From Dictyostelium discoideum (Eukaryota), in contig CM000154.2 of NCBI GenBank assembly GCA_000004695.1, positions 5,024,001-5,088,000 on the forward strand: 64,000 bases of DNA, given 5' to 3'. The translations under genes were made by a program, and so were the position numbers. Every line of letters begins with the position of its first letter. Positions within the stretch are counted from its first letter, which is position 1. Shown in pieces: positions 10,573-12,432 of the stretch. The notes under the pieces were generated by a model. That model saw only the letters and a program-made list of their open reading frames with translations, did no database searches and was not told the origin of the DNA.

Positions 10573-11632
10573 TTAAAAAAGAAAATGTCTAGCCCTTTTC
10601 CAAGCATACATATCCACAGAACGAATTGTTTTTCTTCCTGCATGAGAAGCAAGTAAACCAGAATCTTCCATTAGACGAGTCAAGTAAGCTTCAGTAGTAG
10701 TTTGGATAGCCAAAAGAGCTCCAGGAGTTATTCTAAGACCATCGTCGAATAAGCACATAATTTCTCTGACTAATCTGGATAGAGGGAGACGAGGAATCAT
10801 AAAATCAACAGAATTTCTAAGTCTGCGAATCACTGAAGCAACTAGCCTTCTTCTTCTCTTCTTTCTTGGAGTTGTTGGAGTTGTTGGTGTTGTTGTTGTT
10901 CTTTGTACTCTTATACGTGGTGTGGTTGGTGTTGTTATAGATGCAGATGTAGATGAATGTGTAGATGTAGGTGTTGATGGAGGTGTTAATATCGATGTAG
11001 ATGTACGTGATGATACAGGTGATGATATAGATGTTGATGAAGGTGTTGATATAGATAATGATGAAGGTGTTGATGAAGGTGTTGATGAAGTTTTGCTTCT
11101 GGTAGATGGTGGTGTTCTTGTTGGTGTTGAAAGAGGTGTTATACTTTTACTTCTAGTAGATGGTGGTGTTTTTGTTGGTGTTGTCACAATTGTTTCTCTT
11201 CTACTTTTGGTAGGAGTTAATGATGATGATGATGATGATGATGATGATGGTGATGACGATGATGATGATAACACGTTCTTTGATACTTTTTTTGAAGCAG
11301 CAGGTTTTTTAGCTTCAGATGGGAGTGGACTTCTTCTTGTTGGAGGTAATGGTGATTGTTGTTGCTGTTTGCTTCTTGTTGGTGTAGTGACTTTTTTGAT
11401 TGGTGCTGGTTTCTTTTTAATAAGAGGTGAAGGTTTCTTTGATACCTTTACTCTACTTTGTTTTGATGATTCAGAAGATGCCACTGATGATGATTCATCA
11501 TAATTTGAAAATATTGATGAAAGTGATGGTGATGGTAATGGTTTTCCACCAGAACGTTTTGGAGCTTCTCTAACTTCTTCCTCTTCTTCTTCCTCCTCCT
11601 CCTCCTCCTCCTCTTCTTCTTCCTCTTCTTCT

Positions 11633-11712
<80 letters not shown>

Positions 11713-12432
11713 TTCTTCTTCTTCTTCTTCTTCTTCTTCTTGATCACTGGAATTATTTTGAGAACTAGAATCGTCATCAGACTCTTCTTCAATTTGACTG
11801 GTTTTTCTTTGAATTTTTGGTGTTTGTACGACAGGTTTTAAGTTTGTTTTGTAAGATGGCAATATTGGTGTTAATCTTGGTGGTGCTGGTGCACCTTTTT
11901 TATACATGAGTGTATTTGGTTTGGAGAGTGGTGTTGTTGGTGTTAAATTATGTGATACATTGATGTTTTCTAATGATCCTCTAATAGAATCCATTACACC
12001 AGTTGGTAATCTTTGAGAAGCTGCTTTACGGATAGGTGATTCCGTCATTACATTTGTATAATATGAATCATCAGTTACACTAGGAGTATCATTGAATTCA
12101 ATATTTGAAAGGTTCATTATTGTATTCACTGATGCTCTTGATGATCCGGATAATCTTGATGATCCAGATGATCCAGATGATCTTGATGATCCAGATGATG
12201 CAGGCGATCTTGATGATCCAGATGATTCAGATGTCGATATTACTGGTGATACTGGTACTCTAGTAGTTCCTGGTGGTTCATAAGATTGTGTTAAAGAACT
12301 TGATGGACGGGATGGCTGAGTTTGTCTTGGTTGTTGTTGTTGTTTTAGTTGAAGATCAGCCTCTGGTGATGTTCTTTGTCCTGACCTTATTAAATCTCTA
12401 AGGTGTTCTGAGGGTTTGGGTTTGTTAGCCAT
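10573..12432 (-). CDS. cenH3: Centromeric histone H3 variant (CenH3-like). It has a C-terminal histone-H3 fold and a ~500 aa low-complexity N-terminal tail. The protein is 619 aa in a single exon.
   Basis: The C-terminus RRRRLVASVIRRLRNSVDFMIPRLPLSRLVREIMCLFDDGLRITPGALLAIQTTTEAYLTRLMEDSGLLASHAGRKTIRSVDMYAWKRA aligns with H3 alphaN-alpha3 (RKLPFQRLVREIA...[23 protein letters not shown]). The tail is Ser/Thr/Pro-rich with a continuous Glu run of about 70 residues. The symbol assignment is an inference from the known unusual Dictyostelium CenH3, which has its histone fold at the C-terminus. Confidence 0.65.
11577..11740 (-). repeat. (GAA/GAG)n coding microsatellite, read as (CTT/CTC)n on the plus strand, encoding a ~70-residue poly-Glu tract in the CenH3-like tail.
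   Basis: Read directly from the sequence. The plus-strand mirror produces a spurious poly-Lys ORF at 11448..11792. Confidence 0.9.

What the first reader, a model, noticed from the sequence alone, without database searches (positions are those of the whole stretch)
10573..12432. CenH3-like histone H3 variant with a ~70-residue uninterrupted poly-glutamate tract
The histone fold sits at the extreme C-terminus after a ~500-aa Ser/Thr/Pro-rich tail. The tail contains one of the longest pure acidic homopolymers I have seen encoded, (GAA/GAG)~70 at 11577-11740. This repeat is a likely hotspot for length polymorphism and could modulate centromeric chromatin charge. Three copies of AGAATTTGAT(G/T)AAC(T/C)C lie 235-310 bp upstream (12667-12743) and are candidate cell-cycle promoter elements.
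Basis: partly seen in the sequence, partly recalled or inferred. Interest (0 to 1): 0.5.

Follow-up and report, generated by a model that had tools for sequence, protein, structure and literature searches.

The report
Known Dictyostelium centromeric histone gene (h3v1)

Summary
The ORF at 10573-12432 (-) is real: a single exon of 619 aa. It is D. discoideum h3v1 (DDB_G0291185), which encodes DdCenH3. Both cloning primers published by Dubin et al. 2010 (PMC2995078) match the two ends of the ORF exactly, and the paper gives the same length of 619 aa. That paper showed centromere localisation, association with DIRS-1 and loading at G2/prophase.

- **Histone fold:** the C-terminus scores as an H3-type fold (Pfam Histone E=6.9e-20; best solved-structure matches are H3, 1e-15).
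- **Poly-E tract:** it is 55 residues (aa 232-286, window 11575-11739; 42 GAA + 13 GAG), not about 70. The closest orthologue found (D. firmibasis) has only a short mixed acidic patch there. Two D. discoideum assemblies carry the identical tract.
- **Upstream 16-mer:** three copies exist exactly where stated. They are the only non-coding repeat cluster of that kind in the 64 kb. They match no known cell-cycle element and are not conserved as such in D. firmibasis, so their function is untested.
- **New here, minor:** two short predicted-helical motifs in the N-tail are conserved between the two species. One 88-aa block, which contains an S-P-x-R site, is better conserved than the histone fold (52% against 41%).

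Verdict: already known, low interest.

The parts
10573..12432 (-). h3v1 (DDB_G0291185) coding sequence, single exon, 619 aa + stop. It encodes DdCenH3, the centromeric histone H3 of Dictyostelium discoideum.
   Evidence: ORF. Published cloning primers MJD87 and MJD88 match exactly at 12410-12432(-) and 10573-10601(+). The paper gives 619 aa. The identical protein is encoded on a second D. discoideum assembly.
10576..10866 (-). H3-type histone fold domain (aa 523-619: alphaN, alpha1, alpha2, alpha3), preceded by the basic KKRRRR stretch.
   Evidence: Pfam Histone PF00125 E=6.9e-20 over aa 503-608. PDB H3 chains 1e-15 and Drosophila Cid 3e-14. AF2 predicts helices at 523-540, 551-562, 570-597 and 605-618.
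11575..11739 (-). Poly-glutamate run of 55 residues (aa 232-286), encoded by 42 GAA + 13 GAG. It is embedded in a wider acidic patch (aa 215-286).
   Evidence: Counted. TRF finds period 3 x 56 copies with 91% matches. It is absent from the D. firmibasis orthologue, which has EESGSSDDDSDDS...EESEEDEE at the same relative position.
11824..12087 (-). Conserved N-tail block (aa 116-203). It contains a full CDK-consensus site SPIR (aa 132-135) and a predicted helix (aa 144-160), followed by TTPLSKPNT...KKGA...NLKP.
   Evidence: 52% identity to D. firmibasis P0001 over 88 aa, which is higher than the histone fold at 41%. Alignment, CDK site, AF2 helix with pLDDT 64-73.
12379..12408 (-). Conserved N-terminal motif EHLRDLIRSG (aa 9-18), predicted to be helical.
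   Evidence: E9, H10, L11, R12, I15 and S17 are invariant between the two species. AF2 predicts a helix at 9-18.
10867..11574 (-). Basic Ser/Thr/Pro-rich low-complexity part of the tail (aa 287-522). Net charge is +30, 61% of residues are S, T or P, there are many TPxK/R repeats, and it is built partly from internal tandem repeats.
   Evidence: Charge and composition. TRF finds period 54, 36 and 24 repeats at 10960-11213 and a poly-Ser array at 11220-11269.
12654..12756 (-). Three direct copies of a unit of about 30 nt. In gene sense it reads TTTTTTAATTGRGTTMATCAAATTCTTTTTT. The core 16-mer copies are at 12667-12682, 12692-12707 and 12728-12743, spaced 25 and 36 nt apart. Candidate cis-element array or neutral tandem duplication; function untested.
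   Evidence: (family D6). Identical in the second D. discoideum assembly. Not conserved as a 16-mer in D. firmibasis.
12461..12500 (-). Putative core promoter: a TATA-like TATATTTTTC followed by a run of 30 T, ending 28 nt before the ATG. This assignment is inferred, not shown.
   Evidence: Sequence read. Its interpretation as a TATA box plus oligo-T ahead of the transcription start rests on general knowledge of Dictyostelium promoters, not on a test here. The T-run is 8 nt shorter in the second assembly.

Best explanation
The ORF is h3v1 (DDB_G0291185) of Dictyostelium discoideum. It encodes DdCenH3, the centromere-specific histone H3 variant.

How it works:
- The C-terminal H3-type fold pairs with H4 and replaces H3 in nucleosomes of the DIRS-1-rich telocentric centromeres. 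This marks the place where the kinetochore assembles. The protein is loaded at G2/prophase. All of this is published experiment.
- The roughly 520-aa N-terminal tail is predicted to be mostly disordered. It has a conserved layout: an N-terminal helical motif, a conserved block with an S-P-x-R site plus a helix, an acidic patch, and a basic S/T/P-rich stretch next to the fold. I infer that the two conserved motifs are docking sites for partner proteins.
- The 55-Glu run is a D. discoideum-specific triplet-repeat expansion inside the conserved acidic patch. It belongs to the same class as the roughly 10,000 homopolymer tracts of this proteome. Its exact length is probably not functionally critical (inference).
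- The three upstream 16-mers are a local tandem duplication in the promoter region. They may bind a transcription factor, but nothing links them to cell-cycle control.
For: - **Identity with the published gene:** both published cloning primers for h3v1 match the two ends of the ORF exactly. The paper gives 619 aa, the same as this ORF. Window composition is 24% GC with abundant triplet arrays, as in D. discoideum.
- **Published function:** GFP, FLAG and HA-tagged H3v1 form a single centrosome-adjacent focus, co-localise with DIRS-1 and H3K9me3, and load at G2/prophase (PMC2995078).
- **Fold:** Pfam Histone scores 72 bits and the best PDB hits are H3. In that alignment, H3 PFQRLVREI corresponds to PLSRLVREI (the alpha1 Gln is lost) and [12 protein letters not shown] corresponds to EDSGLLASHAGR.
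- **Poly-E as a lineage-specific expansion:** the D. firmibasis orthologue (493 aa) has only a mixed acidic patch at that position. The window contains many other period-3 arrays of 17-62 copies and homopolymer runs of N30, N22 and Q21 x2. Reviews report nearly 10,000 homopolymer tracts in the proteome (PMC9234386).
- **Conserved tail layout:**
- **Motif triple:**
Against: - By sequence alone the fold is no closer to other CenH3s than to canonical H3 (H3 61 bits, Cid 56 bits). It also lacks the extended loop 1 of most CenH3s: the alignment across L1 is ungapped and the paper says the same. The CenH3 assignment therefore rests on the published localisation and ChIP, not on anything computed here.
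- Neutrality of the poly-E length is inferred from a single orthologue.
- The tract is the longest homopolymer in the window and makes the whole protein net acidic (-6, against +28 in D. firmibasis). A charge-related role is therefore not excluded.
- The exact protein is absent from the 15-billion-protein collection, so names could not be cross-checked there.
Confidence: 0.95

Rival explanations
1. The poly-Glu run is a selected functional module, not a tolerated repeat expansion. For example, it could act as an intramolecular acidic 'self-chaperone' that shields the basic tail and fold until deposition, or it could lower the net positive charge of centromeric chromatin. In that case its length would matter.
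For: An acidic patch at the same relative position is conserved in D. firmibasis. All 13 interruptions are synonymous (GAG), so the tract stays pure Glu. The tract flips the net charge from about +49 to -6. It is identical in two D. discoideum assemblies that differ in nearby homopolymers.
Against: The orthologue needs only about 16 net negative charges, spread over a mixed D/E/S patch. Homopolymer tracts of comparable size are commonplace in this genome and window. Synonymous-only interruption is a general property of D. discoideum coding repeats (Eichinger et al., as cited in PMC9234386). No experiment addresses the question.
Confidence: 0.2
2. The long tail makes this protein a combined CENP-A and CENP-T. 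The conserved block (aa 116-203), with its CDK-type S-P-x-R site followed by a helix, and/or the N-terminal helix, would directly recruit outer-kinetochore proteins such as Ndc80/Spc24-Spc25. This would happen in a lineage where no CENP-C or Mis12 complex has been found.
For: [quoted passage not shown] The block is better conserved than the fold (52% against 41%). It has a full CDK consensus site in both species (SPIR / SPAR) and a predicted helix. Pfam CENP-T_C scores just above its cut-off (30.6 against 28.1 bits).
Against: The CENP-T_C hit is far weaker than the Histone hit (72 bits) and is the usual cross-match between histone folds. The block matches no solved structure, even at E<=10, and nothing beyond D. 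firmibasis in two large protein searches. The resemblance to the CENP-T motif is recalled from memory and was not tested. The AF2 model has low confidence (mean pLDDT 44.7).
Confidence: 0.15
3. The three upstream 16-mers are binding sites of a transcription factor that gives h3v1 its cell-cycle or S-phase-linked expression.
For: - They are the only non-coding cluster of this kind in 64 kb.
- They are among the few G/C-containing islands in the proximal 300 bp of a 12.8% GC intergenic region.
- They lie about 200-280 bp upstream of the inferred transcription start.
- They are unchanged between two assemblies.
- A weak core, TCAAA(A)TTC plus a T-run, occurs at a similar distance in D. firmibasis: -224 to -238 there against -230 to -243 here.
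- The paper reports low expression with a peak at 12 h of development, which it attributes to a synchronous S phase.
Against: - The 16-mer is not conserved in the D. firmibasis promoter, even at 3 mismatches.
- The D. firmibasis core match is post hoc and low in information (expected 0.10 matches per locus; 20 of 200 shuffles have one).
- There is no E2F consensus, and CHR hexamers occur at background frequency.
- TRF sees a simple period-25/38 duplication, like many others in these AT-rich spacers.
- There is no literature record of the motif.
- h3v1 is not in the held RblA target tables.
- The window holds no other histone or kinetochore gene for comparison.
Confidence: 0.12

Closest known systems
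DdCenH3 / H3v1 (DDB_G0291185), Dictyostelium discoideum (Dubin et al. 2010, Nucleic Acids Res 38:7526; PMC2995078)
   Same: This is the same gene. Both cloning primers match the ORF ends exactly, the length is 619 aa, the H3-like fold is at the C-terminus, the N-terminal domain is long and unique, and loop 1 is short.
   Different: Nothing in the sequence differs. The paper does not comment on the poly-Glu run, the conserved tail motifs or the upstream repeats, and it describes the tail as having no similarity to known proteins.
Hypothetical protein RB653_004336, Dictyostelium firmibasis (P0001, 493 aa), the apparent orthologue
   Same: It has the same tail layout, the same TPTTPTTP-basic-fold junction, the conserved N-terminal motif and the conserved 88-aa block. 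It lies on the large contig (9.4 Mb) that I take to be D. firmibasis chromosome 1, which the genome paper says corresponds to D. discoideum chromosomes 3 and 6.
   Different: It has no poly-Glu run. Net charge is +28 against -6. The fold is only 41% identical. There is no microsynteny within +/-5 kb. The promoter lacks the 16-mer.
Other CenH3s with long tails (Drosophila Cid, S. cerevisiae Cse4, human CENP-A)
   Same: All have an H3-type fold with a divergent, fast-evolving N-tail. The Cid fold matches at 3e-14. From general knowledge, Cid and Cse4 tails also carry short conserved blocks used for partner binding.
   Different: At about 520 aa, this tail is far longer. Loop 1 is not extended (paper). 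There is no detectable tail homology to any of them.
CENP-T (histone-fold kinetochore protein with a long disordered N-terminal arm)
   Same: The overall shape is the same: a long disordered arm with short motifs and a histone fold at the extreme C-terminus. There is a weak Pfam CENP-T_C hit. The 2026 review raises the analogy.
   Different: The fold is clearly H3-type (72 against 30.6 bits; all top PDB hits are H3). No CENP-T-specific features were tested or found.
Coding homopolymer tracts of D. discoideum (Eichinger et al. 2005; Scala et al. 2012, PMC3460934; review PMC9234386)
   Same: It is an in-frame triplet array interrupted only by synonymous codons, it sits in a disordered region, and it is not conserved in the sister species.
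   Different: It is Glu rather than the usual Asn, Gln, Thr or Ser. At 55 residues it is the longest homopolymer in this 64-kb window.

Membership tests
CenH3 (centromeric histone H3 variants: CENP-A / Cse4 / Cid) | C-terminal histone fold of the H3 type | tested here: met
   Pfam PF00125 E=6.9e-20 over aa 503-608. 176 PDB sequences match at E<=0.01, and the shown top 60 are histone H3 chains (H3.1/H3.2/H3.3) plus Drosophila Cid.
CenH3 (centromeric histone H3 variants: CENP-A / Cse4 / Cid) | N-terminal tail unrelated to the canonical H3 tail | tested here: met
   The 522-aa tail is S/T/P/E-rich. Alignment to H3 starts only at the alphaN region.
CenH3 (centromeric histone H3 variants: CENP-A / Cse4 / Cid) | Loss of residues invariant in canonical H3, such as the alpha1 Gln in PFQRLVREI. 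This criterion is recalled from Malik & Henikoff. | tested here: met
   In the alignment, PFQRLVREI corresponds to PLSRLVREI, DLRFQSSA to GLRITPGA, and EDTNLCA to EDSGLLA.
CenH3 (centromeric histone H3 variants: CENP-A / Cse4 / Cid) | Loop 1 longer than in H3. This is common but not universal. | tested here: not met
   The alignment to H3 across alpha1-L1-alpha2 is ungapped. Dubin et al. also note the shorter L1 and conclude that the extension is not obligatory.
CenH3 (centromeric histone H3 variants: CENP-A / Cse4 / Cid) | Specific localisation to, and ChIP enrichment at, centromeres | not testable with these tools
   Shown experimentally for this very gene: tagged H3v1 forms a single centrosome-adjacent focus and associates with DIRS-1 (PMC2995078).
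D. discoideum h3v1 / DDB_G0291185 (gene identity) | Sequence identical to the published locus | tested here: met
   Primers MJD87 (23 nt of gene sequence) and MJD88 (29 nt) match uniquely and exactly at the ORF's two ends. The length is 619 aa.
CENP-T histone-fold family | The fold scores best as CENP-T rather than as a core histone | tested here: not met
   CENP-T_C scores 30.6 bits (cut-off 28.1) against 72 bits for Histone. The PDB top hits are all H3 or Cid.
Known cell-cycle promoter elements (E2F site TTTSSCGC; CHR TTYGAA) | The upstream repeats, or the promoter, match the consensus | tested here: not met
   There is no TTTSSCGC in 12433-13393; the only one in the window is at 15064. The 16-mer contains TTTGAT, not TTYGAA. 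CHR hexamers occur 4 times in 0.96 kb, against a window background of 3.2 per kb.
Coding triplet-repeat homopolymer tracts of D. discoideum | An in-frame period-3 array with only synonymous interruptions that is variable between species | tested here: met
   42 GAA + 13 GAG. TRF finds period 3 x 56 copies. Absent in D. firmibasis. Variation within the species was not seen in the one comparison possible.

The most novel reading that the evidence does not exclude
The unusually long CenH3 tail is not just filler. Its two conserved helical motifs would be direct, CDK-regulated docking sites for outer-kinetochore proteins. These are aa 9-18 and aa 116-203, the latter containing the S-P-x-R site. 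DdCenH3 would then be a fused CENP-A and CENP-T-like kinetochore receptor in a lineage that lacks CENP-C and Mis12. The acidic patch, expanded to E55 in D. discoideum, would keep the basic arm off DNA.
Probability: 0.12. Interest if true: 0.6.

Novelty: already known. Interest (0 to 1): 0.1.

Why it matters
As it stands, the finding re-discovers a gene that was cloned, localised and named in 2010, so it adds nothing to what is known about centromeres.

The modest added value is descriptive:
- The poly-Glu run is a species-specific expansion of a conserved acidic patch.
- The supposedly unique tail contains two motifs conserved with D. firmibasis. One is better conserved than the histone fold and carries a CDK-consensus site.

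If those motifs turned out to recruit kinetochore proteins, it would help explain how Dictyostelium builds kinetochores without a recognisable CENP-C or Mis12 complex. The 2026 review still lists that as an open question.

Tried and rejected
- **Full-length homologue search:** low-complexity words swamped it, and it returned only the D. firmibasis protein.
- **Conserved N-tail block against 1.84 billion representatives:** the only hit, P0002, is a repetitive junk ORF. Neither the query's own protein nor P0001 was returned, so this search is uninformative for biased sequences.
- **Same block through the word-indexed search:** nothing was found.
- **Fold-only search:** it returned only an 86-aa fragment of the same gene and an unnamed 158-aa H3-like protein from ENA (48% identity). 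No further dictyostelid orthologues were found, so conservation of the tail could be judged from one species only.
- **Exact look-up in the protein collection:** the protein is absent, so no source names were obtained.
- **PDB searches with the block and the N-terminal motif:** the block found nothing. The N-terminal motif gave a weak WH2-like match to Spire (E=0.32), which I judge to be chance.
- **RblA-regulon paper:** its supplements do not list h3v1 and it gives no promoter motif.
- **Literature search for the motif core:** it returned only unrelated primer hits.
- **Rfam and tRNA scans of the window:** both were empty.
- **AF2 on a 2-sequence alignment:** overall confidence is low (pLDDT 44.7), so I used it only for secondary-structure tendencies and did not send it to fold search.
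- **Other-frame ORFs over the repeats (10922-11503 +, 11448-11792 -, 12092-12283 +):** I rejected these as frame-shifted readings of the same repeats.
- **Genome paper (PMC1352341):** it was not held.
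Full report
**What is there**

The window is 24% GC and full of A/T homopolymers and triplet arrays. On the minus strand an uninterrupted ATG-to-stop ORF runs from 12432 to 10573 and encodes 619 aa. The last 100 or so residues are a histone fold. Pfam Histone (PF00125) matches aa 503-608 with E=6.9e-20 and 72 bits. A search of all PDB sequences with the last 120 aa returns histone H3 chains as best hits (1e-15, 61 bits), with Drosophila Cid at 3e-14. The first 515 residues are 22% Ser, 11% Thr, 11% Pro and 14% Glu.

**Correction to the observation**

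The uninterrupted glutamate run is 55 residues (aa 232-286; window 11575-11739), not about 70. The protein contains 73 Glu in total. At the DNA level the tract is 42 GAA with 13 interspersed GAG, and the longest pure GAA run is 16 codons. The three copies of AGAATTTGATKAACYC are exactly where stated (12667-12682, 12692-12707, 12728-12743), and there is no other copy in the 64 kb even at 2 mismatches. The repeated unit is actually about 30 nt, with spacings of 25 and 36 nt (family D6). TRF reports it as a period-25/38 tandem duplication.

**Identity**

A literature search found Dubin et al. 2010 (PMC2995078). That paper identifies the Dictyostelium discoideum H3-like gene h3v1 (DDB_G0291185; 619 aa against 136 aa for H3; histone fold at the C-terminus) as the CenH3 orthologue. 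The gene-specific parts of its two cloning primers occur once each in the window, without mismatch, at the two ends of the ORF. These are ATGGCTAACAAACCCAAACCCTC at 12410-12432(-) and TTAAAAAAGAAAATGTCTAGCCCTTTTCC at 10573-10601(+). The exact protein is also encoded on a second D. discoideum assembly, GCA_054883475.1. The finding is therefore the known gene.

Its function is published. Tagged H3v1 forms a single focus next to the centrosome, co-localises with DIRS-1 and H3K9me3, and is loaded at G2/prophase. A 2026 review still lists it as the only centromere-specific histone of Dictyostelium (PMC13510849).

**CenH3 features**

In the alignment to H3 the alpha1 motif PFQRLVREI reads PLSRLVREI, DLRFQSSA reads GLRITPGA, and [12 protein letters not shown] reads EDSGLLASHAGR. 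Residues invariant in canonical H3 are thus lost, as in other CenH3s (this criterion is from general knowledge). The alignment across loop 1 is ungapped, so the usual CenH3 loop-1 extension is absent, exactly as the 2010 paper reports.

By sequence score the fold is no closer to Cid than to H3, so the centromeric assignment rests on the published experiments. A Pfam CENP-T_C hit (30.6 bits, cut-off 28.1) is a weak cross-match between histone folds.

**The poly-Glu run in context**

The window contains many period-3 arrays of 17-62 copies. In long open frames it has homopolymer runs of N30, N22 and Q21 x2. E55 is the longest run, but it belongs to the same class. Reviews count nearly 10,000 homopolymer tracts in this proteome, note that interruptions are typically synonymous, and say that whether selection acts on them is unresolved (PMC9234386; also PMC3460934).

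The only orthologue I could find, from D. firmibasis (P0001, 493 aa), has no Glu homopolymer. At the same relative position it has EESGSSDDDSDDS...EESEEDEE, about 16 net negative charges. An acidic patch is therefore conserved, and the homopolymer is a D. discoideum expansion of it. The expansion changes the net charge of the protein from about +49 to -6, against +28 in D. firmibasis.

On polymorphism, the second D. discoideum assembly differs from the window at 28 positions in 7.9 kb. All are intergenic, mostly A/T run lengths plus five substitutions at 13343-13428. The CenH3 coding sequence, including the Glu tract, is identical. That is one comparison only, and I do not know whether the two assemblies are independent strains.

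**The tail has structure that the literature does not mention**

The alignment with P0001 shows the following features:
- **N-terminal motif:** a conserved EHLRxxIxS (aa 9-18).
- **88-aa block (aa 116-203):** it is 52% identical, which is better than the histone fold at 41%.
- **Shared TPTTPTTP-basic junction:** it lies immediately before the fold.
- **CDK site:** the block contains a full CDK-consensus site in both species (SPIR and SPAR).

AF2 on this shallow alignment has low overall confidence (mean pLDDT 44.7). It predicts helices at 9-18 and 144-160 (pLDDT 62-73) in an otherwise disordered tail, one long helix for the Glu run, and the four histone-fold helices.

The block has no detectable relatives elsewhere. 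I infer that the two motifs are partner-docking sites. The review's suggestion that DdCenH3 may combine CENP-A and CENP-T roles in the apparent absence of CENP-C and Mis12 fits this, but it is untested. The similarity to CENP-T motifs is only a recollection.

The basic S/T/P part of the tail is partly built from internal tandem repeats of 24, 36 and 54 nt.

**The upstream repeats**

In a systematic scan, the triple is the only cluster of at least 3 copies of a 16-mer (at least 4 G/C, at most 2 mismatches, within 150 bp) that lies outside an ORF in the window. It accounts for two of the three G/C-containing islands found within 300 bp of the ATG, in a 12.8% GC spacer. It lies roughly 200-280 bp upstream of an inferred core promoter, a TATA-like box plus T30 that ends 28 nt before the ATG (this interpretation is from general knowledge). 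The copies are unchanged in the second assembly.

Against a cell-cycle role:
- There is no E2F consensus in the spacer, and CHR hexamers occur only at background frequency.
- The 16-mer is absent from the D. firmibasis promoter at up to 3 mismatches. Only a low-information core, TCAAA(A)TTC plus a T-run, sits at a similar distance from the ATG. I found this after the fact.
- No paper mentions the motif.
- h3v1 is not in the held RblA-target tables.

The window contains no other histone or kinetochore gene. Its neighbours are a phytochelatin synthase, an unannotated 394-aa ORF, kinases, an SH3 protein, major vault protein, glycogen phosphorylase and a nucleoporin. The triple is a real and locally unusual feature of unknown function. 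A simple tandem duplication remains the most economical origin.

**Verdict**

The core interpretation is correct, and the object is already known and experimentally characterised. Novelty: already known. Interest is low. The only points that go beyond the literature are descriptive. They are the species-specific nature of the Glu expansion, the conserved tail motifs and the unexplained promoter repeats.

Noticed in passing
window 11824-12087 (-) and 12379-12408 (-); L002 5001-6482: The CenH3 N-tail, described in the literature as having no similarity to anything, shares two motifs with the D. firmibasis orthologue. The first is EHLRxxIxS at aa 9-18. The second is an 88-aa block (52% identity, better than the histone fold at 41%) with a CDK-consensus SPxR site and a predicted helix.
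   Followed up: partly
window 7567-15449 vs L001 (GCA_054883475.1): Two D. discoideum assemblies differ only in intergenic A/T run lengths, plus five C/G-to-A substitutions at 13343-13428. One of the length differences is 8 T in the T-run of the putative h3v1 core promoter at 12483-12490. The coding sequence is identical. This could be strain variation or long-read homopolymer error.
   Followed up: partly
window 1-25000 vs L002 1-11482: There is no microsynteny around CenH3 between D. discoideum and D. firmibasis. Only the CenH3 gene itself matches by tblastx, although the genome paper reports extensive synteny between the two genomes. The gene or its neighbourhood has been rearranged.
   Followed up: partly
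window 12379-12423 (-), aa 4-21: The N-terminal motif KPKPSEHLRDLIRSGQRT gives a weak match (E=0.32) to the three WH2 repeats of Drosophila Spire (PDB 3mn7). This is probably chance for a nuclear histone.
   Followed up: no
window 13038-13108: This is the most G/C-rich island of the h3v1 / phytochelatin-synthase spacer, about 290-350 bp downstream of the upstream gene's stop codon. It has no Rfam or tRNA match. It is possibly 3'-UTR sequence.
   Followed up: partly
window 5920-5991: Another intergenic tandem duplication of the same style (period 34, 2.2 copies) has a G/C core, GAGCGGTGAA, flanked by T-runs. It lies between the SH3-domain ORF and the kinase ORF.
   Followed up: no
window 9227-10411 (+): The convergent neighbour is a 394-aa ORF with a Q11 run and an acidic/basic KE-rich tail. 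It has no Pfam family. Its stop codon lies only about 160 bp from the CenH3 stop codon.
   Followed up: partly
window 15064-15071 (+): The single E2F-consensus match in the window (TTTGGCGC) lies inside the span of the phytochelatin-synthase gene, not in the h3v1 promoter. The number expected by chance is 0.49.
   Followed up: no
window 10573-12432 (-): The exact DdCenH3 sequence is absent from the 15-billion-protein collection. The homology searches did not return the query's own protein. The collection appears to under-represent highly low-complexity proteins, which limits any orthologue survey of this gene.
   Followed up: partly
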